Below are positions 256 through 63,103 of a DNA stretch of 64,000 nucleotides, in pieces (the stretch's first letter is position 1; each line of letters starts with the position of its first letter). The stretch comes from Vermamoeba vermiformis. Its lineage: Eukaryota. The notes beneath the pieces are model-generated. The model had not been told where the DNA came from. It was given only the letters and a program-made list of their open reading frames with translations, and made no database searches. Both the position numbers and the translations under genes were made by a program. Location of the stretch: contig JBEWZL010000282.1 in NCBI GenBank assembly GCA_045837725.1, forward strand, positions 310,001-374,000, written 5' to 3'.

Positions 256-2916
256 ATGGCAACTACACTCGAGGTATGAGACGATTAACATCTCGAAGCT
301 AACTCGATCGCAGAACTTGCCACTCTCCGTTGGCCTGTCCGTCGCCAAACTTCGATCCGTCATTCTTTCTTTGACGGAGAACGTCGAAAGCTTACAAGTA
401 ACTGCTAATACATTAATCGCTAAGCTAATCACGCCAAATTTAGGCTCAACAACTTGAAAATGATGAGAGATTCAAAGAATTTAAAACAGAAATTGAATTG
501 GCTCGCACTAACGGGTCAAATTCCAATGCGGCAATCTCTTTCGATTTTAATACTTCGAAGGTATTTATTTTCATCATTTTTGAAATTAATTCTGACAAGT
601 TATTATTAAGGCGGACAGTAGCGCACTATCGCTCGAAAATGCCAAGCTTCAAAAGGACCTAGAAGAGGCCGTGCATATTATAGAGTCTAAGACGCAAGTC
701 ATAGAGTCGTTAAACAAGAAGGTGCTTCTTGTCGAGTCAGATCTTGCTCAAAAAGATAAAGAGCTCAGCCAGAAGAATTCTCAGCTAAAGAACGTCGACA
801 TGATGATATCGGTATTTCAGAAGAACATGAGTTCGGTGAGATCTCAGTTTTCAGAAGTTCAGGAACGCTTCCATAAAGAGCAAGCTTCCGGTACGTGATC
901 GGCAGATCTCCCTTTCAGTGATACTGAGGTTTCTTTTATTAGTGGACAAACTCAAGCGAACTCATGAGAACATCATGCAATCACAGAAGATGAATCAAGG
1001 TAAGCATAAAGCATATGCGGATCTTGTTCTGATCTGATCTGAACGTTGCCAGAGGACATTAACAAGCTGACTCTCGAGAACAAGATGAAGCAGTTGAAGA
1101 TCAAGACGCAAGACGAGAAGATCACTGACATGTACAGCAAGTTGCGCGAACAAGCTACGCTACTCGAGGAGACCAAGCTGAAGCTCCAATCAATATCCTT
1201 ACTGCAGTTGTTAATCACTAACCATATCATGCTAATGACCCTTAACTAATGTGCACGAGATAGAGCTTCGTAGCGTCGCTGAGGGGTTCGCTGAAGAAGT
1301 TAGAAAAGAAAAAGAATTCTTTTGCGAGTCACTCAAGGCCTCTGAACGGCTGCTGACCGACACGACACAACTGTTGAGACAGCGCGAGGAGGCGTACACC
1401 GATCTAGTCAACGAGAAGTCGGCGTTGGAGAAACGCATTGATGCACTCAAACAGGCGTTGGATGAGAAGACCAATCCCGTGGAGTGCACGGAGCACAAAG
1501 ACAAAATTAAGAGACTGGAAGAACAAGTGAAGCAATTGAGCGATAAAAACAAAGAGCTCGCTGACAAAGTGAAGACCTATCAGAGCAGGTACGTCGATAG
1601 CGCTCATCATTAAGTAACGTACTTAGACGAGTGCAGGGAGCTAGTGCTGAAAGAGGAAGTGATCCTGCACGACAAGAAGATCGGTAAGGCCAATGAAGAG
1701 CTGCAGACCGTGTCCAAGTCACTTCAGTCGTACAAAGATTTGAGTGCGCTGCAAGAGAAGAAGTTAGAGACACTTCAATCAGAGCTCGAGTCTCACAAAA
1801 CACTCATCGTGAGGTTGGAAGAAGGTACGGCCTAAGAGTATTCTCAACTGTGCTTACTGGTGCGTAGAGCTATTGAAAGCAGACAAGAAAGTTACTCGTC
1901 AGCTCCCAACACCTGTCGCGTCAAACTCGCCGCCAAAATCCATTGCTCCACCTACACAAGCTGACTCGCCCCTCTCTGCTGGAGGACGGAAGTTTTTCAC
2001 ACCACCGCTCCCACGACCCATGACCTCATCTCCAACGCAACAAAAAGCGATCAAGCTAGCGCTTGTTTATGCAGACGAAGATGAGCCAAGTGTTGCGGTG
2101 GAGAACGAAGTGCGTGACTTTGAAGAAGATGCTGTGCCTCAAAATGAATTCAAACAAGTCATAAATGACGAGGAGCTTCAGGTAACACTATGGAGAGTCC
2201 ACTTCAACAGTGCTTACTAACTAACTGCTCAGGAGGACTTGTTCGTGCTTGACTTTGACATGCCAAACAGAGGTGGCAACACTGTGTCAGAACAGATGGA
2301 AGTAGACGCAGTAGATGACGAGGACTACGACTTTGATGCATTCCAGCGAGCCTCCTCGATGTACCCTTCAAGTGGAAAGCAAGGAACACGACCTAATCAC
2401 TTGTCCTCATCCGCGGCGGGCATGAGGAAGAACAACCTCGACGACTTCATTCAGGTGACGCCACGAGGTCGACCAGCGCAATCAAAGCCACAAGCGCAGC
2501 AGCATGGCACGGCCGGTACCCAGCACACTAGCAACGCGAACACTAGTGCTAACACAATGCGTGCGCCGATTGGACCGTCATTCAGCACGTACAAATACAA
2601 ACAAACGGCCAAGAAGACGTCTTCCAATAATACAAACTCCTCCATTGATGCTCTTGGCTGTTGCTCGGATCAGCACAAGCACGGACCCACTGTAAGTATT
2701 GCAGCATCCCAGCCTCCTGGCGCCACCTTACACTGCCACAGATAATATGCACGTCATGTCGCAAAAAGTTCCACCACTCCTGTTTGAGACAAAACGATAG
2801 CCGCACACTGATCAAAGGTACAGTCCTTTTAACCAATTCTTCCACTGACATTGCACGCAGAGCCATTCACGTGCGTATCATGTGCCAGCAAGCGAAAACC
2901 ACGAGCCAAGAAGTGA
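256..2916 (+). CDS. Long coiled-coil protein with acidic/SP-rich linker and C-terminal PHD-like zinc finger (multi-exon, one AT-AC intron)
   Basis: Manual splicing from ATG 256 (MATTLE/NLPLSVG...) links heptad-rich ORFs 671-898, 1046-1249, 1251-1613 and 1644-1835. The end reads CCSDQH..CTSC..HHSC..FTCVSC..RAKK* (TGA 2914-2916). Confidence 0.65.
1193..1256 (+). other. U12-type AT-AC intron
   Basis: 5' site ATATCCTT (1193-1200), branch CCCTTAAC (1239-1246), 3' AC (1255-1256). Removal joins ...KLQS to EIELRS... in frame and skips the stop at 1247-1249. Confidence 0.9.
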
Positions 2917-2961
2917 TACTAATCACATTTATATACTATTAACACTACATACAACGAACAC

Positions 2962-4289
2962 CTATTCCCAGCCGTGTTGTTGTGCCACTCGGTGGAAGGC
3001 CTGAACAGGTGTCAATAAATTGTAACACTGCCAATCGCAGCACTTACCTCTTTAGCTTCAGCTTCGGTGTATTCGCTACAACAAATCACTGTTAGTACTG
3101 TTACTGTATCAACTAGTGCACGTACAAATTAGTGCCCTCGAGTCTCGCACCGCCTTCAATCATCTCACTGCGAATAGCAACCAAGACACTTTCAATGGTG
3201 TTCGCTGCGTGTGTTAGGTTAGTGACGGTGTTTGCATGAACCGCGTGAAGCACTTACCTGGCAGCCAACCACTGCGCGTCAACATCTCCATGCAAATACT
3301 GCCACCCACTGTCACGTGCCCTGTTCTGTAAGCAAAGCGTGGCTTGACAACACGAATGAACGGTGGAGACCACGGGAAATCGTTCGGGAATTTGACTTCT
3401 AATTCGACGTGGTCCTGTGTAATGTCGTTAGGCTGACTTCTAATACGTGTGCTAGTATTTACCGTTCCGTATGATTTCTTGTGTCGTTGCAAGTCGCGTC
3501 CTAGATCTGTGTCGAGACTGAAATTTGTGAATTTAACGCGCCACTTGTAGAAATTATCATCGTCAACTGGTCCTCCTTCAATGCCCTACAGTGGCCTATT
3601 AGTATTATGCAATTCGCATCACCTGTCGTTGCGTACGTATTCTTTTGGGTCCATTTTGCACATAGTCTCGTATTCTTTGATCAATCTCTTCGTGGCCCCA
3701 GCACTGCCCTTGCCAGTGAATCGTTGGTCGTCGAGCTGTGCGTGTGAAATAAGCATTGTTAATATCACTCGTGTCGGTCAAGTGATTGGATCTAATTACA
3801 CTTATTGCCTTGGCGACTGCTGCTTGTTTCTGTCAGAATAGGATCGATTATTAATATGTTCATATGGCTATGATGTCAAAGTACCTTTGGTTCCTCTTCT
3901 GACGAACTTTCTTCCTGTAATCGAAGCACGTTAAAAACGTCTAAAAAAAGGAAATATTTGCAGACATCAAAATAATTTTGAGTAATTTGTTGATGAATTA
4001 TTATAATTATAAGGCCTATATTGTTCGATAATCAAGATCCCGCCAATTTTAAATATTAAAATATATTTCGAATTAATTTTACACGCGGCTGAATAGAGCA
4101 AATAAAGCCATTGCACTTACTGAACTCTTCTCAATTTTAGCCTTCTTCTTCGGTGGTTCATCGACTGTCGGCTCGGCAGATCGCTTCAAGTGACAGATCA
4201 GTTGTCGTGTTCAAGCACAATGCTGCGAATACAGTTTATCGGATACGGCAGTTACCTTTGTTGGAGTAACCTTCTTCTTAGAGCTCATA
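2962..4289 (-). CDS. UBE2Q: Ubiquitin-conjugating enzyme E2, UBE2Q-like
   Basis: Spliced product includes ATKRLIKE, DDNFYKWRV, FPNDFPWSPPFIRVVKP, GHVTVGGSICMEMLT and ends HGWE*. Confidence 0.88.
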
Positions 4290-13205: not shown

Positions 13206-13856
13206 CTAATTCTCGCTCTTCGCTTCAGTGTCAGCAGGCTTATCCTCACCCTCGCTCTTGTCCTCGTGCTTATCGTCTTTATTAGTGCTGCTCTCGTCTT
13301 TGCTCTGCTCCTCGTCTTTGTTTGTTGCTGTCACTTTAGATCCGGTTTCAGTCTTCTGCTTCTTGCGTGCCTCTTGTTGCTTTTGTTTCATCTTCTTTCG
13401 CTTTTGACTTTTTTTGTTTCGTTTTCTTTCTTCTTCTTCGACTCGTTGTTGCTTTTTCGCCTCCCAATCCGAGTTAAGTTTTTCCTGATCTCGTGTCAAA
13501 TAAACATCCCAAGGATACCACTGCTAAATAAACTTACTAATCTAGCTTCGTCTTCCATCTTTTTAATGCGTGCTTGTTCTCGCTTCTTTTGCATTTGATA
13601 GTTATGAAATTCACCGCTGCCCGCTCCAGCAGACGAGCCTAAAAAAATTTAAAAATTACAACCCAGTACATAATAATTATATGCACAATATTAACATGTG
13701 TTTCAGAATAGTTCCGAATTTTTCTGGGTGCTCTTAATTTTTTTGGGCTCCAAAATAATATCGGATCTTCTTACTTGGTGTATTACGAACAACAATAGGT
13801 TCATTCGATGCAAGAGCATCATATAGCTGTACTTCTTTCTTTCCAGACTCGCTCAT
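13206..13856 (-). CDS. PRKRIP1: PRKRIP1-like (DUF1168) splicing factor
   Basis: SSAGAGSGEFHNY signature followed by a charged helix and Lys-rich tail. Confidence 0.88.
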
Positions 13857-15401
13857 GACTCACTCTCGGTGGTGTGTTAATGTGTACAGGCGAAGACAAT
13901 TCAAAGCACAAAAACAAAATTGCAACACGAAGCCCATTCGTTTCGAAACATGTGAATAGCTGAGCACAACAACGTGCACGCATGCGCTGAAACACACGTA
14001 GTATATCATTAGCGACGTTCCGAGCTGCGACACAAAACACACGGTTGAAGTTTATGTGTTCCGTCGATCTCAATTGAATACAATAACGCTCAAGAACGCA
14101 AATGCTTCGCAACAAATATTCCGTATTAATTACAACCGAGTTTTACCATTGGAAATTTGGAATTTGGAATTGCCTGGCATCTGGCCTTTGACCGCAAGAA
14201 TAATTAATTAATTGTTTTACCGCTTCATTTCAATTATTCTTGTTGGGAAGTGGTAGTCGATTCAATGGGTATGTCATGATCTTTTTGATGAATTTTTTTT
14301 CTTTTTTTTGGGTCTCTTTGCTTTTTTTTTCGTGGGATCTTGATCTAAATTAAATTTATGCAATGTAACCTTGGAAAAGCTTTGCGGAAAGCCTCCACAC
14401 TCTCAATACTGAGCTCTACATGCTATAGAGAGCCTTATAAGAACTCCTCCACTGCAGGCTATTTCTGGCACTTGATCAGATCAAAACGGTTTATAGAATG
14501 CGGACCATATCCTACGCCTCGACCTCGTTGAATACCTTAAAAGCACCTTTTAAAGATGCAACCAAAGATATGCAGCGCGGAAGCAATGTCAAACATGTAA
14601 GGGTGAATTATCCTCTGAGATCGATTCAAACTAGTACGGGTTCTGAGCCCGATGCTGCAGTACGATGCTCAATCAAGCAGCACTAGCCCAGCGCCGCGCT
14701 TGTTTTCTTGATGTTCCGCCGCTGTTGCCGATACAGCAGAGAGGCAATACCTATTCTGGTATCTTGATATGATTGGCAGAAAACATAATCGACACGGCGG
14801 TTGAGAATTACGATAAGATACGCAACTATCTTAGGGTGGCGCATACTATTAAATAATGAAGCTTGGGTGAATTGGAGCGATCCCGGGTAAAAATTCAGTA
14901 TTTAAGTAATTTTACTTAACGCTACGTGGTATGAACCGCTAGGCCTCAGGAACGTACTAAGGATAAGCATGCCGGCATCAATACAATCACGCTGTAACCT
15001 GGGACGCGAGGGAAAGATACGTTTATGTTCTGGGACTATTTCGGGCAGATAAAAAAGGAGATAGATGGATCAAACGAAATCAAGCATCTAGAAGACCGTT
15101 CAGAGCATGAAAATGCAATGTATATTGAAGTAGACATTGACACGCAAATTCAGCCTTCTGAATCTCTGTCTTAGGAGCGCACAAAGCGAATATTTTGATG
15201 AAATTTCGCTGAACCAATGAATTCGCGCCTTTGAGTTTGTTTGATTTAACGGTTACTTGCCAAATATAGGCCTTGTTCTTTTTTCTTCCAACCATGTGCG
15301 TCATGTGCTCCACTTGTTTTGTTTCGATTTTTTATTCATTCGTAGTTTCGCCATGGTTGTAACATCCACTGATCAGTTTATTATTTTATTTTGATTTAAA
15401 T

Positions 15402-21924: not shown

Positions 21925-23413
21925 TTAGAAAAGATAGATTTGCTCAAAGGAGTTGAAACCTGAGAGTACGTTATTAGATTCGCGCGAGTGTCTCGATAGT
22001 TTAAAATTTCATACCATAACCGCCAGCACCAGAGAATACTGGCGAAAAGTTGTAAATTAATCTCTTATTTTCTTCATTGGCATCAGCAAACTTGTGAGTA
22101 TTCTTTCTCGCTGCGCAGTGTTGTTAATCCACAATAAACAGATCTGCTGCTTACCTTCTTGGACGAAGAAGTTAGCCATGTATTGAGAAACTTTGATGGC
22201 CTCGGGAGTGTGAGGAATAACTTCTTGCGCGTACCACTCACTACAAAGTTGTTAATTATAATTCATCGCAACAGACGTACGTACAATGCTGGTTTTTCAG
22301 GGTGCCACTGCACACCATAGATCGGGTATTTTTTGCCTAATATTGTAAGTAAATACTCTGACGTCAGAGAGGCCATTCAGTCGGGCTCACCTTCAATCGT
22401 CGAAACAAAAACCTTGCCCTGACGGTCGGTGTTGGTGGTGATCACGTGATAGAACTCGGCGAGATGTTTGTTATCTAAATAAGGAAATTAGCGTGAAGAG
22501 CTTGCATTGTAAATGACACGTGTCAAATACGTACTCTTGAATGAGTCAGGACCCACACCCCAGTTGTGGTTGTTCATTGTGACGTTGAGTGTAGCCATCA
22601 CATTCAACAGATCATAACTCGCGCCTTTGAAGATACGGCTCGACTTGTAATCGGCTGCAAAGTCCAAGTTCCTGCGTCGAGAGCGTAAGTCTACTGCTTA
22701 TTTGCCACAACTAATAACCTCGTACATCGCAATGTTCCACGCATCAAACTTGGTCAGCAAATTGAGGTCTTGACTGGTGATCATGGACAGCCATTCAAAG
22801 CCCATGCAGTGACCGAAGATTGGAAAGTAATCGCCCTTGTTGTTTGCCTAGTAATGCGACGCGTGAATAAGAGTGCATGTAATGAATGCTATGACATACT
22901 TCTAAGGCGAGATCATAAATATATTTGCCGGCCAAATACAAGGTCGTGTTGGTGAGATCTGCTCCACCTCCTGGGAACAAAACACCGTTGACGCTATTGA
23001 ACATGTGTTTTAGTTCAGCGCGAGTGGCGTTGTAGCTAATTGCCGAGTCAAGCGATACAACGTTGTAATTGAAAGAATATCCAATTAATTTTGAATTTTC
23101 CAACGCATTATTAAAAATTACGAAGATATTGAGTGGTGAGTTGATATTAAGGATACAATATGGGGACTACTCGAGCACCAGCACTCTCAACGTACTATTA
23201 ATAATAGCCATTAGAAAATGTCCGCGATCGGGTCGGTTAAAATGACATTAGTACCTTGACATAACTCGCAGCAATGTATTGATTAGGACCACTTCGTGCC
23301 TCATCTTCAGCGGTTGGTTGAGTCATAATGCCGATGATTGGGCGCAGATTAGCACCGAGGGCAATGCAGCTGACCCAAGCTACAACAACTCCGAGAGTCC
23401 AATAAGAGCGCAT
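21925..23413 (-). CDS. GGH: Gamma-glutamyl hydrolase (peptidase C26) with signal peptide
   Basis: RPIIGIMTQP, YIAASYVK, GVLFPGGG, FPIFGHCMGFE, NNHNWG and YGVQWHPEK. Confidence 0.93.
23036..23156 (-). other. U12-type GT-AG intron in GGH
   Basis: Minus-strand donor GTATCCTTA, branch-like TCGCTTGAC 12 nt before TAG. The join gives VVPIF-YNATRAELK in frame. Confidence 0.8.
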
Positions 23414-28621: not shown

Positions 28622-28740
28622 TCCTGCTAACACCTTATTTTTAATGTATACCCCGTCGTAAATACTTGTTTCATATTAAATTCACTTTGTTGGTACATAT
28701 GACACTTTATTTACAAGGGGTGGAGCAAAACTGTTCAATT

Positions 28741-44040: not shown

Positions 44041-44126
44041 GCGTGTAGCACTGTATTGGTATACTTTGTAATTAATAGGAATAGAGAGCTGAAGCTGCTA
44101 GCCAATAAATCTGTAAACAGCACCCT

Positions 44127-48094: not shown

Positions 48095-48360
48095 CGTGAT
48101 GCTTGTACGGCAATTAAAATAGCCGTACTGTGCAGTGTTGAATTAATAAATTGGGTATAATAAGTAGCACGACCAGTTCCACCTTTCATATTTCTGAAAA
48201 GTTGACCGAAAAAGACAGATCGCAACAGTACACGAACACGCTGCGCATTTGTTCATATTTAGTTTATTTTAATATAGAGTTCCGCATATCTAAACAACAA
48301 AAATTCAATCGCAGGTTACACTTGAGGCACATATTCTTCTTTTATTTATTGGCTCCTTTA

Positions 48361-49433
48361 TTACTGCTGATTGCGTGTCTTGCGATCAATGTTGATCAAG
48401 TTGCGCTCAATCATATTCCAGTCCACTACTTTCCACCAGTTGTCAATGTACGCCTAACAAGCCATCATCATCAGTTCCACCCATCACATTTACAACAACG
48501 ACGAGTGTGTACATACCGCGCGATCAGTCTGATAGTCCTGTGCATAGGCGTGCTCCCACACATCGAGGGCCAGCAGCGGCGTCACACCGCTCAATGTCGT
48601 GCCCACACCTGCTTGAAAACTGCGCACGTAACTCGACGACACCACCGGTACGCCGTGCTCGCTCCTGGAGCCGAATGTGCTGCCACCCCCGCCCATGGTG
48701 TGGCCGTTGAATGTGACTGCAATCTCCAAGTGTCCGTTGTTGTCGATCAGCCACGTCCAGCCCGAGCCAAAGATAGCACGCGCGTGTTGTGTGAAGCTGG
48801 CCTTGAACTTGTCCACGCCATTGAAGTGCAGCTCCATCAGCTCTTTGACGCGCTTGCTGGGCTCAGCGCCGCCAGGAGTCATGCCCGTCCAGAAGAAGTT
48901 GTGATTCCACACCTCCGCGGCGTGGTTGTAGATGATGGCTTCGTCGGCCACGCTGCTCGTCGCGCGAATGATCTCTTCCAGGGACATGGACTCGTACTGT
49001 GTGCCTTCAATCAGCTGATTCAACTTTTGCACGTAGCCGAGGTGCACCTTGTTGTAGTGGTAGTCGAGTGCGCGCGCAGAGAATGCTGGCTTGAGACCGC
49101 CCTGCACGGAATAGGCCAGCTGCGGCAACATGAACAGTGTGCGCTGTCAATCGAATAGCCATCAGTGAGGTCATGCGTGGTGTGGGTGGTGTTATTATGA
49201 GTACTGCTATTTAGGGGCACTACCGGGCCAGATTCAACAAATAATAATTGATAATAATTAATAAAAACAATGTTTTAATTTTATACCGCTCAATTTATTT
49301 ATAATGCACCATAAATGTATTGATATGACGCAGTATACATTATTTAAAATTTGTGTAGTACCTTTTGGGCTTTGTTTAACTTCAATCCACCTTTTATCTT
49401 TGGTAGAACGCGAGAACGAACGATATTAAACAT
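48361..49433 (-). CDS. Fe/Mn superoxide dismutase-fold protein with mitochondrial-type presequence and atypical active site
   Basis: MFNIVRSRVLPK... presequence, DYHYNKVHLGY, NHAAEVWNHNFFW, FGSGWTWL and LDVWEHAY. Confidence 0.88.
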
Positions 49434-49567
49434 AGCGACGAATATACTATTAGTCTAAAATAAGTGTTCGCTGTTCGTTCACTTCAAAAATAAATAAAAT
49501 AATTAGTTGAGTTAACACTCGCGATCCAACACTTATTTTTTGACCTGGACACGTGGACATCAAATGA

Positions 49568-51024
49568 ATGACACAACAACTGCCTTATCATGTTATAGAT
49601 ACCGGTCAATGTGACTTGCAGGCATTGGGGGAGGATATTGAGGACTTGGTCGCTTACATCTCGCCAGCAAAACGTGAACAAGTCGTCGAGGCCTTAGTGC
49701 ACAGATTGCAGCACATTGTTGATGACATATGGAACACCAATGATAATTTGGCAATTATTGGACAGCCCGTCAAACTGCAGCTCTACGGCTCCTCATTTAC
49801 GGGCCTCGATCTGCCTGCAAGGTAACCTATTTATTTGCCACAAGAGACCAGCTAATTAATTACCACCAGCGATGTCGATCTTACATTAATCTCGGTTGTA
49901 AACGCCGAGAAACAGCTGAATAAGAATACCGCAGTGCCTGCATTGCGTGACTTGTGGAGCGAAGTGCACGAGCACATTGCACCAGCAGCGAGTGAAGAGG
50001 CATGGGACGAGTGGGACAATTCTAGCCATAGTAGCCATGAGGACGAGCAAGCAAGTGGAGGAACGGAACAACACTTGACGGCAGATTCACCTCCCGTGCT
50101 CAATCAGCAGCTGTTGTATGAGCGACAAATAGCTATCCTGCATCAATTAGAGCGCGAGATCAATCGACGAGGCTGGGCAGCGAGTTGTCAATTGATACGG
50201 GCTCGTGTACCGATTGTCAAGCTGCAAGACCGCGAGCTTGGCTTTCACTTTGACGTGTCTGTTGAACAGCTCGATGGCATTGCTAGCAGCGCAGAGATTA
50301 AGCGCGCATTGCAGGACAATCCTCTGCTCACCCCCATCATCAAGATACTCAAGCTGACACTGCACTCGCTGGATCTGCATCGTCCCTACACTGGCGGTGT
50401 GGGCAGTTACCTGCTCGTGCTGTTAGTGCTGCACTACTTCAAGGTATAGATAACCCAATGCATATATGTATCATTTGATGCTCAGTCCGACAGTTGCATG
50501 GCAAGCACGTGATAGAGGCACCACGCGAGTCAGAGGATGTCAAAAGTGAGTCAGAGGGTGTCAAGAGTGAGTCAGAGTCCGCTACTCGTCTGGCACGAGC
50601 TCTGTTGGGAGTGCTGCAGTGGTACGGCGAGACATTGGCTCCTCTCTCGTGGACACTGCACTCGGACACTGGTCACGTGGAGCTGCACGCCAAACCTGCC
50701 CTGGTCGACGACACTGCCCTGGTAGACAACATTGCCCTGGTGGATGAATTACTAGACGTGACGCAGTGTGTTCTGCATCCAAGCACCAAACACAATGTCG
50801 CTGCGAGTGCCACTTCATTGCCAACAGTGTTCGCGCACTGGGCACAACTAGCACGTGATCTGCGTGGAGGCAAGGCCCTGGATCAAGTGGTGTGGTGTCG
50901 CAGTGAAATCGGCAACTACATTGACAAGTTGACGCGTGTCACGCAGCTCATTGGAGAGAAGCGGCCTCGTGAAGAGACAGCGGATGATCAAGTGATCAAA
51001 CGTGCCAAGATAGACAGCGAATGA
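49568..51024 (+). CDS. Non-canonical poly(A) polymerase / terminal nucleotidyltransferase (Trf4/PAPD5-like)
   Basis: LYGSSFTGL..SDVDL, ARVPIVKL, FDVS and YTGGVGSYLLVLL. Confidence 0.85.
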
Positions 51025-51218
51025 CAGGTGTCATACAGTGACTTCAGAAAGAGTGACTCGTGGGAAGAGTTGCGACAATGACAGGTGTCAAGTAGTGAAC
51101 TCGAATTGTTTTTATTTACAATAGTAGTGACAAGTAGAACTGACTGCTGCACTGATAGCGCAGAGTGGGGTCGTATGAACTGTTGAGAGATGTAGCAGCA
51201 GTGCAATAAAACACGTGT

Positions 51219-52346
<1,128 letters not shown>

Positions 52347-52539
52347 GTTACAATACTGACAGTGTTATTATAGAGCTATGTGTACGATACTTTGTTTCAG
52401 TGTTTTGAAAAAGATTTCTTGCGGTCCAGTTTTCAGCAGCGTGAAAAAAACAGCGAAAAGTCTGTCGTCTGGCCTTGGGTCCATTTGTAACCACTTGCTG
52501 AGCTGCACACTACACGTATACATATTTATATATACAGCG

Positions 52540-55483
52540 ATGAGACGCACCATCGCACAGCTCACTCTCGTGTTGCTCGCAGCAGTGCTCGTCACGGCAC
52601 AGCAAGCGTGCAGCGAACTCAACGTTAAAGTGACTCGCGTAAGTACACTACTAGTGAATATGTGTTTATATATATATATAATTTTACTGTTAAAAGTGAC
52701 TCATTTATTTTTCCTTTAGACTATGCTTGACAGCGATCTTCGTCCTCCAGTCCATTGGATAGGCACTGAAAAGGTATTCAGCATAATATTATGGGCATTA
52801 TTATAATTGATATTGATACAGCGGATGACTATTTAATTTATGAATAATTCCTTAACAAATTTTCCAAATTGCGCACCTTATGTCATACCAACGACCAACT
52901 GCTCGATTAATCGCTGCGCCACTCTTGATACGCCCCCTGTCATAACTAACTGCTCATATAGAACATGTTGCTATTGACGCGCGGAGGTCACGTCTGGGCC
53001 TCGTATGACAAGGGCCAAACATTCCGCGATATTACGCGTGACTTGCCTGGCCTGGCTACCAATGTGTACATTTCGCAAATTATACCCACGGCGAAGGACG
53101 GTGCAGTACTCGTTGCAACAAACAACTTGGATGTGTGGAGCAGTAAGGATGGAGGCAGAACTTGGATTCACGGCAAATCAACCTTTGGCTCCATTCTCTC
53201 GCTACAAACCCATCCCGTGCACGACAGCTGGTTTGCAGTGCAGACAGTTAGCCGTGCATGCTTTGAATCACCAAACACTTGCTCGTTGGATCTGCATCTC
53301 ACCACTGACGGCGGTGCTAATTTTGCTCTGTTAACAACTTATATTACTGAGTTCAGTTGGGGAGGCGCAGGTTTGAATGGAGTACCAGAGAATCAACTGC
53401 TTGTAGTTGATTGGGCCGACAAGACTGGCGACTTCAGATCCAAGCCCGCCGATCAAAAGCGATTAGTGCGTTCTACCAGCTTCTTCTCGTCTTCAGACGT
53501 CATATTGCACAATGTAATCGACTTCTTGTACCTCAACAGTGTCTTCCTCGTCGCACAGCGCGGCAAAGTGATGGGAGGACTGCAGTTGCTGATCTCAGAG
53601 GACTACGGCGCGCATTGGATCACCACTCGCTTCCCTCACTCTGGTGCTTTGGAGCGCGTACGTATCCTGCCTTGTGCTGTTAATATCTGATAAGGCTCAC
53701 CATTACTTTGCAGCGCTACACGATTCTGGGCAGCGAACTCGGCGCAGTAGTGATCAACATTGAGCACGAGCATGATAACTGGGGCAATATATACGTCTCT
53801 GATCGCTTTGGAGGCAACTTCTCGCTCTCATTGCGCCACAATCCGGTACGAACTGTTGCAAGCCTAGTCACGTGATCACTGACCAATCCTGTTGCAGCGA
53901 CAACCGTGGGGCCCGTGCGACTTTGCACTGGTGAAGGGACTCGAGGGCATATTCCTAGCGAATGAGTTCCTGACGGAGGGCACTGATCCCGATGCTCCCG
54001 TCAGTGCGGATCGCGTCACCAAGATTTCGTTTGATCTGGGTGGCGAGTGGAACAGACTCAGCGGTCCTATTGATGCTGCATGCACTGCCAACAACAACTG
54101 CTGGCTCAACTTGCAGGGCATCACCACGAGTTACAGCGGACGATTCTACAGCGAGCCCACAGCGATTGGTATTCTGCTCGGCACTGGCAATGTTGGTCGT
54201 GCCCTGACTGACCGCACGGATCTGCTCAACACGTTCATGTCACGTGATGCGGGCTGGACGTGGCAATTGTTCCGCAATGGCTCGCATCAGTACGACATCA
54301 CCAATCACGGTGGCATTGTGCTGATGATCGATGACGTCGCACCCACGCGCACATTCATGTAAGTCGCTGTTTGACACCTCGTTCATGAATCGTTGGATTG
54401 CTGACACGTGTCTCACAGCTACACTTGGAACGAAGGTCTCGCCTTCACTGAGTGCGCATTCGCCACCAACAGAGAGAAGGCCTTTGATCTCGAGGGCGTC
54501 ATCTCCGAGCCCAGTGGACTGGATCCGCACTTCTTCCTCTACGGACGCGAACAGGGCAATGCGCAGGTGCACGGACTCTTGTTGCGCGCGGACTTTGATG
54601 ACTTGCACGAGCGCGCGTGTCACGGCTGGGAGACTCCTAGCACGGACAACTCCGACTACGAGCACTGGATGCCGTCCGCAGCACGTGGCGACGACTGTCT
54701 GCTCGGTCACCGCGACACCTTCACTCGCAAGAAGCGCGAGGCAGAGTGCTTGAATCCAGCGGCCTTCAATCCCCTGCAACACCGCATTCTCAAGAACTGC
54801 AGCTGCACGCGCGAGGACTATGCTTGGTAAGTCAGGTCCTGATGCTAAAAATAGCGCACTCACACCCTCTGATGCAGCGCTTATTGCTACGAACTGAATG
54901 AAAACAACGACTGCGTGTTGAGCTGCGACGACTTTGATCCGAAACAGGCCCCCGAGGACTGCGAGGGCACGTGGCAAGAGACGCAGGGCTACCGATTGGT
55001 GCCAGGTGACACTTGTGACGTCGGCACTGGCCTCAATTTGTTGCCCATCACTCGCGCGTGTCCTCCCAAGGCCCCCAGTGTGGCACAGGTGCCAGTGACT
55101 GCCCCCACTAGCAGTGTCGATGAGGGCACTTCGCCAGTGGTCAGCGCGTTGTTGTTGACCGTGCCGATACTCGCGGTCATCATCTTCTTGTGCGGACTGC
55201 TCTACTTCTTGGCAGCGCGCAGTCAAGCCGTGCGCAATGTAGTCTCCAAGGTGTTGCCTGAACGATTGCTGCCGACCTTCCAGCCCCCTGCCTCTGATTA
55301 CAGCTCTGCTTTGCAATTCAATCCCAACGCCCCCAACATTTTGGACGAGGATTTGTTGCAAGATGACGATGATGCGCTGCAAGAGGACGGTAAGTACCAT
55401 TAGTTTGAAAGAAAGCAAGACTAACGTCAAATGTAGCTGCTGTTTTGGACTTGGAACAACCGGACACCAGAGACAACCAATAA
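52540..55483 (+). CDS. VPS10: Vps10/sortilin-family sorting receptor
   Basis: Signal peptide, BNR/Asp-box repeats (SYDKGQTF, SKDGGRTW, SRDAGWTW), 10CC module (CSCTREDY..C, GYRLVPGDTC), one TM helix and an acidic tail with DEDLL. Confidence 0.92.
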
Positions 55484-56045
55484 TTTGCTCTGTAAATAAG
55501 TAATGCAACAATTTTAGTAAAGTAATTATCTGTTAAAAAATCCCACAGTAGTACTATGACATTTGTTTTGCATATGTGAATACGTGCATCAACTCAGTTT
55601 GGAATGGAAGAAATCTGCCAATTTGATTTACTTTGGCTGGAGCAGCCTGGAAAGCACGTAGATCCAGCTTTTTTACACAAACAACTTTTCGTTCCAAGCT
55701 GTTGCCAGGTTGCTGTGTCTGCTGTAAATCCTCAAATCGCCAATAGAATCAGCGGTCCAGCGTGTCACTGGGCACCAAAGGTTTGGGCTTACTTGCCCCA
55801 TTTGGAGCACTTAATGCTGCATTATTGAACATATCAAAGATAGACAATGAAGGATAAACGCTTTGACTACTTGATGACTCAGAGTAGAATGGGGGACGGC
55901 CCGGCTGGATTGGCCAGGGTGGGCTCCTGCATGCTTCCTGGAAAAATTACTAATTCCTACCAACTTGGCCTGGCTGACCTCCAATCTGAGGACAGTGGAC
56001 CAACACAACTTCTTTGGGCGGATGTCCCGTCCGGCAAAAATTGGA

Positions 56046-57157
56046 ATCGAAAGGTATTGTAAAAATGCATTTGGGTATATTTGGGGGGCATTGGGAGGAT
56101 TATTTGATGGAAAATCAATGTTTTGTAAGATTTTAATAAAATTTGATGTTGGCCCTTGAAATTACTTGCAAAAATCTGCAAATTTTCAATCATTGCTGCC
56201 CCATTCGGAAATCATTAGCAATTTCCAAATTAGGAAGGTTGCTAGCATAAACAATGCTTTACAGCATGTACATACCATTCCAACTTGTCCCGTCAAATTC
56301 TGTCAATTACTAACTGTTTGCCAGAGTGCTCCAAGGTGGAAACAGGCAGTTAGTGTAACTAGCAAATATAACCATATATGGCAGGAGGTTATGGACATCA
56401 TAAGTGGACCTTTACAAAAAACAATGATTTGAACTTGCCGCGCCAAATTCCGGCAATTACTAACGACTTCCTTGTTGCTCGTAATCCTTGTAAATTCTGT
56501 TTTTTAACTGAAATTTCGGGATTTGACAGTAATTACCAAATTAGGAAAGGATGGGGCAGTTGGCATTTGTTGCACCATGGTTACTAAAGTTGAAACTTGT
56601 CCCGACAGTTTTTATCAATTACTAACGATTTGCTGATCACTTTACTATATTTCTATATTAGGCAAGTAGAAAACTCAGTTTTCACCTGGGAAGTGCAAGG
56701 CATATAAATGATGAAGGGAAACTGTTAGTAATTGCCAGATCATATGCACACAAGTGCCAAGAGGAGTGTTTTGCAAATGTCCACCTCATGGACCCCTGAT
56801 ATGCACCACAAATTTCCTTTTTAGGCTATTCCATGCTATATACTTGCTTTTTGCACTGTATTTGCCCTAGGAACACTCAAGTAAGCATCAGACTCCAATT
56901 CTTTTGTGTACCATGATCTGGCAACCTTCAAAGCATCAAATCATGATTACAAACCAGTGAAACACTTCCTAATATGGGCACCTTAGAGTAAAATGGGGTT
57001 TTCCCAGTTGATTTTCAAGAAAACAGGCTGTAACTTCAGCTCTACGGCATATTTTGATGTGCCGTTTTTTTTGTTCAACTTGCACTTCCATGTACTATGG
57101 GTTTTCTGAATAAAAAAATGAAATATACCCAAATGCATTTTTACAATACCCTCCGAT
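56046..57157. mobile_element. Nested non-autonomous TIR element (MITE-like, ~1.1 kb)
   Basis: 37-bp inverted repeats with 2 mismatches (ATCGRARGGTATTGTAAAAATGCATTTGGGTATATTT, 56046-56082 and 57121-57157), flanked by TGGA on both sides, with internal CAATTACTAAC repeats. Confidence 0.75.
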
Positions 57158-57189
57158 TGGACGTCCACCACGGACCGCGCGTCCGCCGA

Positions 57190-58654
57190 CCATACATCAT
57201 ACAGTAGGAAGATTTTAACAAGATTTCTATATGCCCTGTATATGATTAAGCATATCCCTTCATTATAACAAGGTTTGCCACCATACTGGACAAAGTTACA
57301 ACATAAAAAAGATGATTCAAAAAAATTTTCATAGCTAGGTGACAATGTATTGTAGCCAAAGGTCAGGGTTGCATAAAATACGTATATTTGTGTTGTACCA
57401 AGCATGTGCTGGTGGGTGGGTTCATACTTAATGCTGAAAATTTACAAATTGCTGCCACTACAATATCATTGATGATTACTTATATTTTCTTGTTAGATAG
57501 TGATAGATGGAAAGGCACACTACGTCCTTGAGAGGCCACCTCCAATTTGTCTTTAATGTACTCATATAATACTACTTGAGCATTGGCTGATAATAGTTTT
57601 TTGGTAAGCAAGGACACTTCTTACAATTGTTCTAATTCTGTTAGGCGTGCACTGACATGGCAAATCGCTTTTTCTATGTCTCGGATTCGCATCCAGCTGG
57701 TGAATACAATGACCAAAAGCTGCTATCAACATACATCGAAGACTACAAAACTGTCATGCAAAAAGGAGAAGTGACAATTGCTGATGGAGCTTTCTCAAAG
57801 GATGCACCAAGTACCATGTTTTGGGGTAAGAATAGCAATTTTAGGAAGTTTTATTTTGACGGTGATTAGTTCCAATTCGAAAACCTCAAGGAATTATCTG
57901 CTGTACAAGCACTTAGCAATGATGCCCATCGCCTCATTAGAAGTAGCATAGAAAGAAGCTTTGGTTTACTCAAAACTTTGTTTAAAGTTTTGAGAAAAAA
58001 GTACAAGCACAGACTAGACACCTACAACTTGGTCTTCAAAATTTGTGTTGCACTGTACAACATTCAGCTGACTGCATCAACTGTGAACTACAGCAACCAT
58101 CCAATTATGACGTAAGACAATGTACAAACACAATGAAGTACTAATAGTATTGCAGCTATGAGCCAGTGCTAAATCAGGAATTAGATGGTGAAGAACAGTC
58201 AGAAAATGATGATGACAATGCGTTTCCTGCCCATCATGGCATGGATGATGAGGAGTATGTGAACGATGCTTACGATGAGCCTCCAGACTACGAGATATCT
58301 GAACAAGATCTGAACACCAACAAGCGGCAAAGAAGAAAGCTTCTGAATAAGCTCAGGCACTCGCCAGCTATGGTTACAGAATTCAAAGCTTATTACAAGT
58401 TATGGAAAGACTTCTCAAATGCATCAAAGAGAATGCAAAACTTGCACAATAGTTCTGCGCAGAACCCAGTTGCCTTCAATAACAGATCATTCAGAGAGGC
58501 GCTCCATGCTGTTTCTCAAGCTAATAAGGCTATAACGGATGCAGACAAGCGGTTCACAATGTTTTCTGTCCTGACACCTGCTGACATGGAGTTGTTGAGA
58601 GATCTGGTGGAGAAAGACGAGTCAGATCTAACAGCAATCAAGCCCCTGCTGTAG
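57190..58654 (+). pseudogene. Intron-containing DDE_Tnp_4-type transposase pseudogene
   Basis: RFLYALYMIKHIP (HTH-like), VIDG, TDMANRFFYVSDSHPAGEYND, IADGAF, PIRKPQG and RSSIERSFGLLK...ICVALYN. In-frame stops and at least two frameshifts, plus an acidic/helical C-terminal exon. Confidence 0.8.
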
Positions 58655-59357
58655 ATAGTGATGAAAGTGGACCCTCCCAGACACCTTCCAAAAAGCAAAA
58701 AGTGTAACTTCCATAGACAATGTCCCTTAATGTTCAGAGAGTGTGTATCAGTAGTTTTATAGTGTAGTTAATATAAATATGCAAGTTTTAGTCACTTATC
58801 TCATATACCCACTTGGCCGGCCGGACTGGCCGGGCCGGCCACTCAGTCCAAGCCGGCCACAAAGGCCCGGCCGGCCATCTTGGCTTATCTGGCCTGGCCG
58901 TCCCCCTCTGGCTCGATGTTAGTAATTGACCAACTTATGCTAAACTCTGCCATTACCACCAGCGGGCCCAAGAAACTACTATTGACATCAGGAGGCTTTG
59001 GGCTACGCGTTGGAGGCTGAAAAAGGCAATGTTCGCAAAGAACTTCAGCATGTGCAACTTCGTTCTACTTGTAGCAAAACTACTTCCTTGCCGCATCTGG
59101 GCCGACCATCCTAATGTCAAGCCATAGAACTGGAGTATTGCTGTTGCTGTCTTCATCACTATGCTCAAAAATGGGCCAGTGACATTCAAGGTGGCTGTCC
59201 TGTATCTGTACGGGGTGGGATAAATGGAAAGAAAAAAAGAGGATTGGTTCACATGATCATTCAGTAATCTAAACAAACCATCTGGGCTTACTAACTAGCT
59301 GAATACATTTCTGTGCATACAACAAGACCAAGAACAATGAAATGTACAGCAACCTCT

Positions 59358-60549
59358 TTATTGCACTTTTTGTGCTTGTCGTCCACCAGTGCTGGTTTCA
59401 AACTTTACATCCTCTTCCCTCTCTTTAACAGCCTCTTCGTAGTTCCACTCACAAATGTCCAAGTAGTACAGTGCCTCTTCATTGGACACTCGTTGAGTGC
59501 GCTTGAATCTGTTGAGCATTTGAGCTTGGCGGCATGCCACATCTTCCTGCGACACTTCATCTGCAACTTCTACTTCGTCGGTCTTGCGTGGTATGACGAG
59601 CTGGGAATAGGCGAAGATGTTGTCGCTGGTCATCTTGTTCGCGGCTTTGATGTCTGCCACTGTGACATCGTATTTGAGTGCGAGGCCGTACAGCGTGTCA
59701 CTCGTCTTCACGTAATGAATCAGCTCCGTGCCCATCAGTTGTGTGCTCGATACGCGCACTGGAGCACGTGATTTGCGCGTCGTGTCACGTGACGTGTCAT
59801 TTGCAGATTTGGTGTCACTCGTCTTGGACGGTGTGTCATGCTTCATGGTGCGTGTGGCACCTGGCACTGGTCCGAGGCCCGTGAAGTCAATCAATGCCTC
59901 GTCCTGATCAGTCACGTGCTCGTTCTGTCCAAATGTGCGACGCAGTTCATCGTAGAGTGTGAGTGACTTGCTGGCCTCGACGTCCTCCAAGTGGTACTGC
60001 ACGCGACAACCAGGGGCGTGCTCGTCGTTCTTGCAACAGCTCCACATCGGAAATGCGCCCATGTGCTGCGAGGTGATGGGCTGTCACGTGTCAGTCTCAG
60101 TGCGGCGAGTGCGCGGTACGTACCGATTGATACTTGCCCGGGTGATATCTGCAGGGTGCAGCGCTGCTCTTGTCCGCAACATTGTCCTTCTCTTTGTAGT
60201 ACTGACCGCAGTTCTTGCAGCGCTTCAGTGCTTCTTTCGGATCAGATTTCACTGCGGGTTCTTTGGCTTGGTTGACTACAGGCTGCATCTCAAACTGGTA
60301 TGTTCCTATATGAGTCTTTGAGGGCGGTGAGCTCGCTAGCTCGTTAACATGTTGCGCATAGAAATTCGTGGTCTGAAAAGAAAATGGAGGAGATGTGGCT
60401 GAGGGCGGGCTTTGCGGGCGCTTGAGTGGCGGTAATGTAATATTTATAGGTGTGTGCAGTGGTGCAACACTCGTTGGCTGATTGTCGGAGCTAGCTCCAG
60501 CGGAGATTTGTTTGTCTTTGTAATAGAGAAAGTCGCTGTATTCAGCCAT
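59358..60549 (-). CDS. CHORD/Btk-like zinc finger + LysM + UBA-like domain protein
   Basis: CKNC...CRYHPG...WSCC...GC..QYH, LysM HYVKTSDTLYGLALKYDVTVADIKAAN...LVIP, and EEALYYLDICEWNYEEAV. Confidence 0.8.
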
Positions 60550-60952
60550 TCTTTTGAGAAATATGGAACCAGTTATTTACTAACAACGTATTGTTTGCGA
60601 TACAGGCTAAGTACTGCCGTGTTGCTCTGCTTTGATGTATGTTCGGTAAATAATTGAATTTCACCGCGAATAGTCGAGGCTGAGAGGTCACGTGATTGAT
60701 CGTGTTGCACGCTCAATATGTCACATATATACTAGTAACCTTAGTTCTATTAAACAGTGGTTTATTTCGTCCATTCAATCATTATGGACAGACCCGTTAC
60801 AAAAATTTGTTTAAATATCGTTGTTTGAATGTTAGACGCTATTTGTTTCGCATTGTGTTGAGCTATAGGACATGAAGAACATATGGATAGTGAATATAAA
60901 GGCAGGAATAAGGGTAGAGGGGTAGGGTAGATGTTATTGGATGTAGTTTCGC

Positions 60953-62710
60953 TTAGAGTCTGTTCCAGTAGGTCCAACCTCTCAACACGTTGTAGTCGGG
61001 CAATTCAGCGAGATTTCCTACAGCAGCGACAGCAATGTCTTGATCGAAGAAGTGCTTGTCCACCACACGGGTCAGATCAGAGTGGTCGATCTGATCAATG
61101 CGATCAAAAATCTCCTTGGGAGTAACGCGACGACCAAAAGTGAGTGCTTGACGACCAATCTCCTCGCAGATAGCACCAGAGCCATCGAGTTGCATCAAGA
61201 AAGCAGCCTTGACCTTGTTCTTGGCGCGCTCGAGTTCCAGATCTGAAATACCCTTGCCGAGTCGTTGCATCTCATTGATCACTTCGTAGGACATGTCTTC
61301 CAAGTTGCCCGGCTCAGCAGTGAAGTAGACACCGAAGAGGCCAGACTGATTGTAGCAGGTGTTGAAGGCCGTGTAGCTGTGCGCCAAGCCCTCGTGCGCC
61401 ACGGTCTCAGCCAAGCGCGCGCTCAGTGTCTTGCCCGCACCCAGACTGCGGTCCCAACTGCCTACCAGCGCTTGCAGCACCAAGAAGGTGAAGTACTCGG
61501 GATGCGTCCAGGACACTCCTTCGAAGGCAATAGCGACGTGAGCCTTGTCGATAGTGTTGTCGCGCACGCGGATCTCGCTGCCAGTGAAGGTCATGGGACC
61601 GAGTTGAGGAGTGGCATCGCTGTCAGGGATCTTGCTGAATGACTTGGCTGCCAAGTCCACGAGCTGCGCGTGTTGCACGGCACCAGCACCAGCGACCACC
61701 ATGCGAGGACCGCGGTAGTGGGTCTGAATGTACTGCGCCAAGTCCTCGCGCTGCAGGGACTTGATGTTGTGTGTCTCACCGAGAATGGTGCGCGCGAGAG
61801 GGGTGCCCTGATAGGCAGCAGCGTGGAGGTAGTCAAACACGACCTCTTCGACCTCACTCTCGACCACTTCCTTCTCCTTCAAGATGACACTGCGCTCACG
61901 CTCCACGTGCTCCTTGCTGAGGGTGGAGTGTTGCAGAATGTCAGAGAGAATGTCGATCATCTTGGGCACATCGGTCTTGAAGCACTTGCCGACATAGACA
62001 GTCTGTTCGCGACTAGTGTAGGCATTGAGCGAGCCACCCATATTCTCGACTTCGAGTTCAATGTCTTGTTGGCTGCGCGATTGCGTGCCTTTGAAGGCCA
62101 TGTGTTCCAAGAAGTGCGCCACACCGTTGTTCTTGTCAGTCTCGTACACTGAGCCAGCTGCAATCCACACACCAACAGTGGCTGTTTGACCAAAGCCGTC
62201 TTCACTCACCACGCGGATCTTGTTCGCCAAAGTGGTCGAGCGAGTGGGCGGGAAGCTGGCCAAGTGGGGGACTACAATACCAGTGTGCACATTAGTAGCA
62301 ACGTGAACTTGACGGGTTTGAGTATTTGTGAGTTTCTTGTTTTGGTTCTGAGAGAGAGCGGCCCAAGTGGTCTGCATCAACAGAAAATTAATTCAATAAC
62401 CAGCGTTTGTGGGCATCAGAGTTCTAAATTTGTTGGCGATAATTATACAATTTATGTTATTGTCGAAACGCTATTAAAGAGAGTTATCAAAATAACACTC
62501 TTGCAATAATAATTCATCTAAATCTGTCCAAAAAAATAATTATGCAATTTTACGCCACAAAATGACATGAAATATTACTTAGTAATTGATATATTCGTGA
62601 TGAAATGAATAAATTGGTACCTTATTGCGACATCCAAGATTTTGCGAGATTTGAGCCTTGAGGTGTCTTGTTACAGAACCGACTCGAATTGATTTAATAG
62701 CTCCAAGCAC
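60953..62710 (-). CDS. PMPCB: Mitochondrial processing peptidase beta subunit (M16)
   Basis: NGVAHFLEHMAFKGT, LNAYTSREQT and EIGRQALTFGRR. The first exon (62621-62710) apparently begins with GTG. An alternative ATG lies at 62377. Confidence 0.93.
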
Positions 62711-63022
62711 TTATTATGTATTATATAGCGCAACACCTGAATAAAATACAATACAGTTATTTTTGATAATGGTCAACAGAAATAAAAACGCAGATTGTAG
62801 TTGTTGCTTGGGCGTTCATTCACTCCATCCACTACAATACTTACAATATATATGCCCTGCTTCTTCAGCACAAAAAAACGAATGGCCGTTTTGCGTCCGA
62901 ACAGTTGGTGAAATCAGGATTATTTTGGTGCCCAGTGAATGCAGGGCTGGTGCCGAGTGGGCAGGACAAAAACAGATTTTCCTTGCTTGAAATTTATTTA
63001 GGGCTCATTCGAAGTTTTGATT

Positions 63023-63097
63023 GTATCCTTGCAACACCTCTTACGTCATTCTACTTAATTACTCCTTTAGTATTATTATCCTTAACTTCTTTTCCAG
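63023..63097 (+). other. U12-type GT-AG intron in the 5'UTR of CAP
   Basis: GTATCCTT (63023-63030), perfect branch TCCTTAAC (63079-63086), CAG ending at 63097, 6 nt before the ATG. Confidence 0.82.
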
Positions 63098-63103
63098 TTC
63101 ACG

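What the first reader, a model, noticed from the sequence alone, without database searches (positions are those of the whole stretch)
1193..63097. Unusually high density of minor-spliceosome (U12) introns: four in 64 kb
Seen: four introns carry the RTATCCT donor and a CCTTRAC-like branch close to the 3' end (1193-1256 AT-AC, 23036-23156, 51670-51770, 63023-63097). The three coding ones restore reading frames. The window has roughly a hundred or more introns (not counted exactly), so this is a few percent. Established: U12 introns are well under 1% of introns in animals and plants, are lost in many protists, and are massively expanded in the slime mould Physarum. Inference: this genome may be another lineage with an expanded or unusually retained U12 set.
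Basis: partly seen in the sequence, partly recalled or inferred. Interest (0 to 1): 0.8.

Follow-up and report, generated by a model that had tools for sequence, protein, structure and literature searches.

The report
Four minor-spliceosome introns in one window
Four unrelated genes in this short stretch of an amoeba-like microbe each carry a textbook rare "minor" (U12-type) intron, a local density about ten times the usual, which hints at, but cannot prove, a genome unusually rich in them.

Summary
All four introns are at the stated coordinates with canonical U12 signals: an RTATCCT donor and a (C/G)CTTRAC branch site 10-13 nt before the last base. The strict donor-plus-branch pair occurs 3 times against 0.33 in shuffles, and 0 of 100 shuffles reach 3.

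- **Intron 3 (Rab2):** removed at exactly 51670-51770 in RNA from two studies.
- **Intron 2 (gamma-glutamyl hydrolase):** splicing restores residue-for-residue collinearity with a solved structure.
- **Intron 4 (5'UTR of the CAP gene):** both signals are kept in two relatives while the interior is about 50% identical. Its splicing was not seen.
- **Intron 1 (AT-AC):** rests on motifs and frame alone.

My crude gene finder gives 109-166 introns in 17-19 predicted genes; I count about 24 by hand. That makes U12 roughly 2.4-3.7% of introns here. The host looks amoebozoan.

The genome-wide inference could not be tested, because no genome is held. Read as a random sample, the window's Poisson lower bound of about 0.66% already exceeds the 0.554% of Basidiobolus, one of the highest densities reported outside Amoebozoa. 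A chance cluster remains possible. The signals are canonical, unlike Physarum's altered ones.

The parts
1193..1256 (+). U12-type AT-AC intron, 64 nt, phase 0, in a lineage-specific coiled-coil gene (about 256-2916)
   Evidence: ATATCCTT donor; CCTTAAC followed by 10 nt ending in AC. It joins ...ETKLKLQS to EIELRSVAEGF... and the intron carries an in-frame TAA. No GT-AG alternative keeps the frame (by hand). A relative's exon ORF P0122 starts VH-EIDLR, so it has the same GTGCAC intron end. No RNA or homology test of the junction was possible.
23036..23156 (-). U12-type GT-AG intron, 121 nt, phase 2, in a gamma-glutamyl hydrolase gene (about 21925-23413)
   Evidence: GTATCCTT donor; GCTTGAC followed by 11 nt ending in AG. 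The exon before the 38-nt micro-exon ends at residue 57 of PDB 4l8w/4l8f (E 0.18, but all 3 hits are this enzyme). The exon after the intron aligns from residue 72 at its second residue (E 1.2e-5). The 12-residue micro-exon plus the split codon fill exactly the 13 missing residues.
23157..23194 (-). 38-nt micro-exon (YVESAGARVVPI plus 2 nt) between a U2-type intron (23195-23254) and the U12-type intron
51670..51770 (-). U12-type GT-AG intron, 101 nt, phase 1, in a Rab2-like GTPase gene (about 51219-52340)
   Evidence: GTATCCTG donor; CCTTGAC followed by 13 nt ending in AG. Joint 51669->51771 in a contig of run X6 (depth 53.6). In raw RNA reads of X22 and X24 the loose end before 51771 (29 and 61 reads, agreement 0.95-0.96) is a diverged copy of exon 51624-51669, so the junction is the same. 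Splicing gives ...[22 protein letters not shown].
63023..63097 (+). U12-type GT-AG intron, 75 nt, in the 5'UTR of an adenylyl-cyclase-associated protein (CAP) gene (ATG at 63104)
   Evidence: GTATCCTT donor; TCCTTAAC (63079-63086) followed by 11 nt ending in AG. The donor is 8 of 8 identical, and TCCTTAAC sits 11-12 nt before AG, in relatives L001 and L002, while the interior is 20 of 42 and 19 of 38 identical. Splicing was not seen: the X6 contig starts at 63116 and read depth there was about 1.

Best explanation
These are four genuine, canonical U12-type (minor-spliceosome) introns, one AT-AC and three GT-AG. They sit in four unrelated genes: a coiled-coil gene, gamma-glutamyl hydrolase, Rab2 and the CAP 5'UTR. 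The host is an unnamed, probably amoebozoan, free-living protist.

Inferred mechanism, from established knowledge of U12 splicing. U11 snRNA pairs with the RTATCCTT donor and U12 snRNA with the TCCTTRAC branch site, whose adenosine lies 11-14 nt from the 3' end. U4atac/U6atac-U5 then catalyse removal. The neighbouring short introns (GTAAGT or GTACGT donors, about 55-60 nt) are handled by the major spliceosome.

Shown: the signals, the frames, exact removal of one intron in RNA, collinearity for one, and conservation of the signals for one.

Inferred: dependence on the minor spliceosome, and that the local density reflects a genome-wide U12 share above the roughly 0.3-0.55% of other minor-intron-rich species. 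The local density is 4 of roughly 109-166 introns, in 4 of about 24 genes.
For: Sequence. The strict motif pair occurs 3 times against 0.33 in shuffles, with 0 of 100 shuffles reaching 3.

RNA: the joint 51669->51771 appears in X6, and the same junction in X22 and X24 reads from a strain that differs by a few percent. Loose-end agreement is 0.95-0.96, so most crossing reads are spliced.

Collinearity with solved gamma-glutamyl hydrolase.

Conservation: donor and branch site are kept in L001 and L002 while the intron interior is about 50% identical and contains indels.

The other RNA-supported introns shown in the same 20 kb (6 of 7) have ordinary GT-AG ends with GTAAGT-like donors. The four U12 introns share nothing beyond the two signals.

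Density: a count of 4 gives a Poisson 95% interval of 1.09-10.2 per window. P(4 or more) is 0.0003-0.0018 if 0.3-0.5 are expected.

Lineage: the best named strumpellin hits are amoebozoans at 50-54% (Stereomyxa, Cavenderia, Polysphondylium, Dictyostelium, Planoprotostelium, Pelomyxa, Arcella). According to PMC10639083 section 24, this group holds the highest known density.
Against: Only 1 of 4 junctions was seen in RNA.

Intron 4 is retained in the one transcript-like contig that covers it. L001 lacks four U2-type introns that L002 has, yet keeps this one.

Intron 2's branch site has a mismatch (GCTTGAC).

Intron 1's gene has no homologue that spans the junction.

No minor snRNA or minor-specific protein was found, because only the window could be searched.

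Looser U12-like motif sets are not enriched: 6 against 2.8, with 7 of 100 shuffles reaching 6; and 29 against 29.8.

L002's 7.4 kb of extra sequence adds no further case.

The window was picked out because it has four, so a chance cluster is not excluded. The intron total comes from my own crude predictor, which merges genes and over-predicts.
Confidence: 0.7

Rival explanations
1. Chance cluster. The four introns are real U12-type introns, but the genome as a whole has an ordinary share (about 0.5% or less, a few hundred at most). This window of mostly old housekeeping genes happens to hold four.
For: The window was flagged because of the count, which is selection. No genome-wide figure could be obtained. 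L002's 7.4 kb beyond the window has none. In other species U12 introns sit mainly in ancient conserved genes (PMC10639083, passages), and this window is rich in such genes. Looser motif sets show no hidden excess.
Against: P(4 or more) is only 0.0003-0.0018 for an expectation of 0.3-0.5 per window. A word search of the scan's notes returned only two other U12 notes, both single human introns. No other window of this genome carries notes. Heavy multiple sampling of this kind of genome is therefore not evident.
Confidence: 0.35
2. One or two of the four are not functional U12-type introns. Intron 4 may be an unspliced part of the 5'UTR. Intron 2 may be removed by the major spliceosome through its TTGAC branch site. 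Intron 1 may be mis-called.
For: L001 keeps intron 4 although its U2-type introns are gone. No junction reads were seen for introns 1, 2 and 4 (one search covered only 44001-64000, and depth at intron 4 was about 1). GCTTGAC would also fit the CTRAY-like branch sites of the local U2-type introns.
Against: The donor is 8 of 8 GTATCCTT in introns 2 and 4, and none of the predicted U2-type donors is GTATCC (tally). Both signals of intron 4 are conserved in a diverged interior, and L001 ends 1 nt before the donor, as expected where spliced and unspliced forms break an assembly graph. Collinearity requires exactly the boundaries of intron 2. Only AT-AC keeps the frame for intron 1.
Confidence: 0.15
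3. The lineage has lost the minor spliceosome, and these U12-like introns are now spliced by the major one.
For: No minor snRNA was found in the 64 kb. That is expected in any case.
Against: Exact conservation of TCCTTAAC at a fixed 11-12 nt from the 3' end in three related sequences, and an AT-AC intron with both full signals, are hard to explain without U11/U12 pairing. In surveyed lineages that lack the machinery such introns are absent (PMC10639083 section 24).
Confidence: 0.03

Closest known systems
Canonical U12-type introns of animals, plants and Rhizophagus (consensus [G/A]TATCCTT and TTCCTT[G/A]AC, as quoted in 10.1101/2020.10.12.336362)
   Same: Same extended donor, same branch-site word, the same short branch-to-3' distance, both AT-AC and GT-AG subtypes, and a mix with ordinary U2-type introns within the same genes.
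   Different: Local density is about ten times higher: roughly 2.4-3.7% of introns here, against 0.27-0.36% in human and Rhizophagus and 0.554% in Basidiobolus. The introns are very short (64-121 nt), and two are flanked by micro-exons of 36-46 nt.
Physarum polycephalum expanded U12 system (20,899 U12-type against 154,299 U2-type introns)
   Same: The host is probably amoebozoan. U12 introns occur in many ordinary genes. The one junction seen is efficiently spliced, as reported for Physarum.
   Different: Physarum's introns carry altered signals: a TTTGA branch site 10-12 nt upstream and frequent +6T donors. Here the signals are canonical, and a loose scan that includes TTTGAC and RTATCT found no excess (29 against 29.8). 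At Physarum's share this window would hold more than ten.
Protostelium aurantium (n = 265) and Pelomyxa schiedti (n = 90), the other comparatively U12-rich amoebozoans (PMC10639083 section 24)
   Same: Amoebozoans that keep canonical minor introns in the hundreds.
   Different: The proteins here are only 51-56% identical to those labelled Planoprotostelium or Pelomyxa, so this is another lineage. If the window is typical, its count would be in the thousands rather than the hundreds.

Membership tests
U12-type (minor-spliceosome) introns | Extended 5' splice site [G/A]TATCCTT | tested here: met
   ATATCCTT, GTATCCTT, GTATCCTG and GTATCCTT: 4 of 4 match the first 7 positions and 3 of 4 match all 8.
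U12-type (minor-spliceosome) introns | Branch site TCCTTRAC close to the 3' end (adenosine about 10-15 nt from the 3' splice site) | tested here: met
   CCTTAAC, GCTTGAC, CCTTGAC and TCCTTAAC, followed by 10, 11, 13 and 11 nt. 3 of 4 are exact over the 7-mer and 1 of 4 has one mismatch.
U12-type (minor-spliceosome) introns | AT-AC or GT-AG termini | tested here: met
   1 AT-AC and 3 GT-AG.
U12-type (minor-spliceosome) introns | Actually removed from RNA at these boundaries | tested here: inconclusive
   Met for 1 of 4 (intron 3; runs X6, X22 and X24). Introns 1 and 2 lay outside the 20 kb that could be laid. Intron 4 had no junction rows and is retained in L001.
U12-type (minor-spliceosome) introns | Host genome encodes U11, U12, U4atac and U6atac snRNAs and minor-specific proteins | not testable with these tools
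   No genome is held. There are 0 Rfam matches in the window. The one RRM ORF is ELAV/Hu-like, not a minor-specific protein.
U12-type (minor-spliceosome) introns | Splicing depends on the minor spliceosome | not testable with these tools
   Needs knock-down or inhibition of U12 or U6atac.
Physarum-type transformed U12 introns | TTTGA branch site 10-12 nt upstream of the 3' splice site, and +6T donors | tested here: not met
   All four have CTTRAC branch sites and +6C donors. The loose scan shows no excess.
U12-enriched genome (share above every non-Physarum species) | Genome-wide U12 share above about 0.55% of introns | not testable with these tools
   Only 64 kb plus 7.4 kb of a relative could be read. 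The window alone gives 4 of 109-166.

The most novel reading that the evidence does not exclude
This unnamed amoebozoan lineage carries U12-type introns at a few percent of all introns. If the window is typical (about 60 per Mb), that means more than a thousand genome-wide. The signals are fully canonical and splicing is efficient. It would be the second U12-rich eukaryote after Physarum and the first without remodelled splice signals. That would show that high minor-intron load does not require co-evolved signals, and it would give a second, independent case for asking whether such loads arise by gain or by retention from an intron-rich ancestor.
Probability: 0.45. Interest if true: 0.8.

Novelty: new member of a known kind. 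Interest (0 to 1): 0.6.

Why it matters
Minor introns are normally well under 1% of introns. The only known exception, Physarum, has altered signals and an altered U12 snRNA. A second amoebozoan with a percent-level load of canonical U12 introns would separate two questions: how many can be tolerated, and whether the signals must change. It would also allow a comparison of gain against retention within one supergroup.

If the window is instead a chance cluster, the finding reduces to four well-formed new examples of a known intron class in a poorly sampled protist. One of them sits in a 5'UTR, and two lie next to micro-exons.

Tried and rejected
1. Whole genome: not held, so no genome-wide classification and no snRNA search were possible.

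2. Rfam on the window: 0 matches.

3. A relaxed U12 scan with coding-score filters failed to recover even the known cases and was dropped as insensitive.

4. Motif look-alikes at 13461-13518(-) and 22536-22636(-) were read and rejected. A gene-finder call at 14759-14925(+) came only from the over-trained pass and has a weak GTATCT donor. I did not read it further.

5. Homologues spanning intron 1: the search for longer proteins found none. The search of all representatives found 2 exon-sized ORFs only.

6. A scan of prokaryote genome contigs, for misbinned contigs of this organism, returned 80 loci. All were bacterial M16 peptidases at 32-40% identity.

7. Metagenome scan: 2 loci. L002's extra 7.4 kb and L001 showed no further U12 motif pair. 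This is uninformative at the expected 0.5.

8. The protein atlas look-up for lineage was unhelpful, returning dynein-like feature hits.

9. The MPP-beta tree of 38 rows did not resolve the lineage. The window groups with unnamed environmental sequences and with one sequence labelled as a locust.

10. Aligning the four introns showed no similarity beyond the two signals, so there is no sign of a copied 'introner'.

11. A paper search for 'Vermamoeba' plus 'minor spliceosome' gave 0 papers. A search for 'minor intron' plus 'Amoebozoa' plus 'minor spliceosome' from 2022 gave 4 papers, and none of their listed titles or abstract openings names a further U12-rich amoebozoan (listing only). Supplementary tables of the surveys were not seen and may list more species.

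12. Water, aquifer, biofilm, soil and root metagenome runs hold parts of the stretch.
Full report
**What is there.**

- Intron 1 (+ 1193-1256, 64 nt) begins ATATCCTT. It has CCTTAAC followed by 10 nt ending in AC.
- Intron 2 (- 23036-23156, 121 nt) begins GTATCCTT. It has GCTTGAC followed by 11 nt ending in AG.
- Intron 3 (- 51670-51770, 101 nt) begins GTATCCTG. It has CCTTGAC followed by 13 nt ending in AG.
- Intron 4 (+ 63023-63097, 75 nt) begins GTATCCTT. It has TCCTTAAC followed by 11 nt ending in AG, and it ends 6 nt before the ATG at 63104.

These are the consensus signals of U12-type introns as quoted in the Physarum preprint: [G/A]TATCCTT and TTCCTT[G/A]AC (part 1 of the text).

**Is it more than chance?** The donor heptamer RTATCCT is not enriched by itself. 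There are 10 on both strands against about 15.6 expected from length alone, by my arithmetic. What stands out is the pairing. A donor followed within 400 nt by CCTTRAC, then AG or AC 5-16 nt later, occurs 3 times. The mean in 100 dinucleotide-preserving shuffles is 0.33, and 0 of 100 reach 3.

Intron 2 falls outside this strict set because of its G. Looser sets are not enriched: 6 against 2.8, with 7 of 100 shuffles reaching 6, and 29 against 29.8. So there is no hidden population of degenerate or Physarum-like U12 introns. Two look-alikes were read and rejected.

**Are they introns?**

- **Intron 3.** It lies in a Rab2-like gene. A contig of run X6 joins 51669 to 51771. In raw RNA reads of X22 and X24 the sequence before 51771 (29 and 61 reads, agreement 0.95-0.96) is a diverged copy of the 46-nt exon 51624-51669. 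The same junction is therefore used in a strain that differs by a few percent, and most crossing reads are spliced. The product reads [22 protein letters not shown].
- **Intron 2.** It lies in a gamma-glutamyl hydrolase gene. The exon ending ...YIAASYVK aligns to residues 26-57 of a solved fish enzyme. That match is weak (E 0.18), but all 3 hits are this enzyme. The exon after the intron aligns from residue 72 at its second residue (E 1.2e-5). The 12-residue micro-exon (23157-23194) plus the split codon supply exactly the 13 residues in between.
- **Intron 1.** It joins two long coiled-coil frames and has an in-frame stop. I found no GT-AG pair that keeps the frame. The gene has no homologue that spans the junction. 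A relative's exon-sized ORF begins VH-EIDLR, so it keeps the same GTGCAC end.
- **Intron 4.** It could not be seen in RNA. The X6 contig starts at 63116, and read depth there was about 1.

**Relatives of the CAP locus.** Two relatives were fetched from metagenome contigs. L001 is about 93% and L002 about 81% identical to the window in nucleotides. In both, the donor is identical at 8 of 8 positions and TCCTTAAC lies 11-12 nt before AG. The interior is only 20 of 42 and 19 of 38 identical, with indels.

L001 lacks four U2-type introns that L002 has, so it looks like a transcript. Even so, it retains the U12-type intron and ends 1 nt before its donor. That pattern fits slow or partial minor splicing. 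It is also the main point against intron 4 being efficiently removed.

**Surroundings and denominator.** Ordinary introns here are short, with a median of about 58-62 nt. Their donors are GTAAGT or GTACGT, their branch sites are CTAAC-like, and they end in CAG or TAG. After self-training it gave 141-166 introns in 17-19 genes. That version over-predicts, for example inside a repeat, and it merges genes.

The predictor places an intron at or near all 8 RNA-supported coding-region joints that one search showed in 44-64 kb, though often a few nt off. It misses both RNA-supported introns it does not model correctly: 52108-52234, which is in coding sequence, and 62372-62620, which is in a UTR. By hand, with Pfam, I count about 24 genes. 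Four U12 introns are thus about 2.4-3.7% of introns, and they sit in about one gene in six.

Of the 7 introns with RNA support shown, 1 is U12-type. Thirty further joint rows were not shown.

**Who is the host?**

- MPP-beta has a 96% relative in environmental data but only 55-59% identity to any named protein. A 38-row tree did not resolve its place.
- The best named strumpellin hits are amoebozoans at 50-54% (Stereomyxa, Cavenderia, Polysphondylium, Dictyostelium, Planoprotostelium, Pelomyxa, Arcella), ahead of Naegleria, animals and others.

I therefore call it probably amoebozoan and not close to any named genome.

**Comparison with what is known.** From Larue & Roy 2023 (PMC10639083; passages and section 24 read):

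- human 0.276%
- Rhizophagus 0.272% (n = 205)
- Basidiobolus 0.554% (n = 249), described as one of the highest densities outside Amoebozoa
- Protostelium aurantium n = 265
- Pelomyxa n = 90
- Acanthamoeba 12 candidates
- the highest known density is in Amoebozoa, in Physarum

From the Physarum preprint: 20,899 U12 against 154,299 U2 introns, a changed TTTGA branch site and efficient splicing. The present introns are canonical, so they resemble the animal, plant and Rhizophagus type rather than the Physarum type. Only the local density is unusual.

**How far does the density claim go?** A count of 4 has a Poisson 95% interval of 1.09-10.2. Divided by 166 introns, the lower bound is about 0.66%, already above Basidiobolus. 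With an expectation of 0.3-0.5 per window, P(4 or more) is 0.0003-0.0018.

Against this, the window was chosen because of its count, and it is rich in old conserved genes. I could not reach any independent sample of the genome. I put about 0.45 on a percent-level genome-wide share and about 0.35 on a chance cluster in an ordinary genome. The remainder covers intermediate values.

**Verdict.** The class assignment is well supported for introns 2 and 3, good for intron 4 and reasonable for intron 1. The lineage-level inference remains open and is directly testable with the public assembly and RNA-seq.

Noticed in passing
window 56045-57158 (wider 55983-58914): A roughly 1.1-kb element with 38-nt terminal inverted repeats that are 95% complementary. 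DNA contig depth is about 25,000-29,000 against about 500-900 nearby. DNA contigs also skip 56046-57167 and 55983-58914, so empty sites exist. No RNA was seen over it. It looks like a high-copy MITE-like mobile element nested in a larger insertion that is polymorphic in the sequenced culture.
   Followed up: partly
window 44001-64000: RNA-seq runs that carry the same species label as the best DNA holder differ from the window by a few percent: 475 of 502 and 785 of 823 laid reads fall in the 95-99% band. Many differences are spaced in threes within coding regions. The DNA run X1 matches mostly at 99% or more. The label seems to cover at least two diverged strains or cryptic species.
   Followed up: no
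L001 1-2982 against L002 and window 63023-64000: A contig from a collection called metagenomic behaves like a transcript. It lacks four U2-type introns present in L002, and the one present in the window, but it keeps the 5'UTR U12-type intron and stops 1 nt before its donor.
   Followed up: partly
window 23157-23194, 51771-51806, 51624-51669 (minus strand): [quoted passage not shown] This is of interest for how the major and minor spliceosomes define such short exons.
   Followed up: no
window 62372-62620 (-) and 63023-63097 (+): The divergently transcribed MPP-beta and CAP genes both have an intron in the 5'UTR. The MPP-beta one is a 249-nt U2-type intron seen in an X6 contig.
   Followed up: no
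proteins P0010 and P0163: An MPP-beta labelled as a locust protein groups with this protist's clade and not with the animals in the tree. A strumpellin is labelled 'MAG: archaeon'. Both look like protist DNA filed under the wrong organism.
   Followed up: no
window 18313-20385 (-), 38591-40378 (+): A Knl1/Spc7 kinetochore protein with MELT motifs and a telomerase reverse transcriptase (weak TEN and RBD hits) lie in the window. They are ordinary genes, noted for annotation.
   Followed up: no
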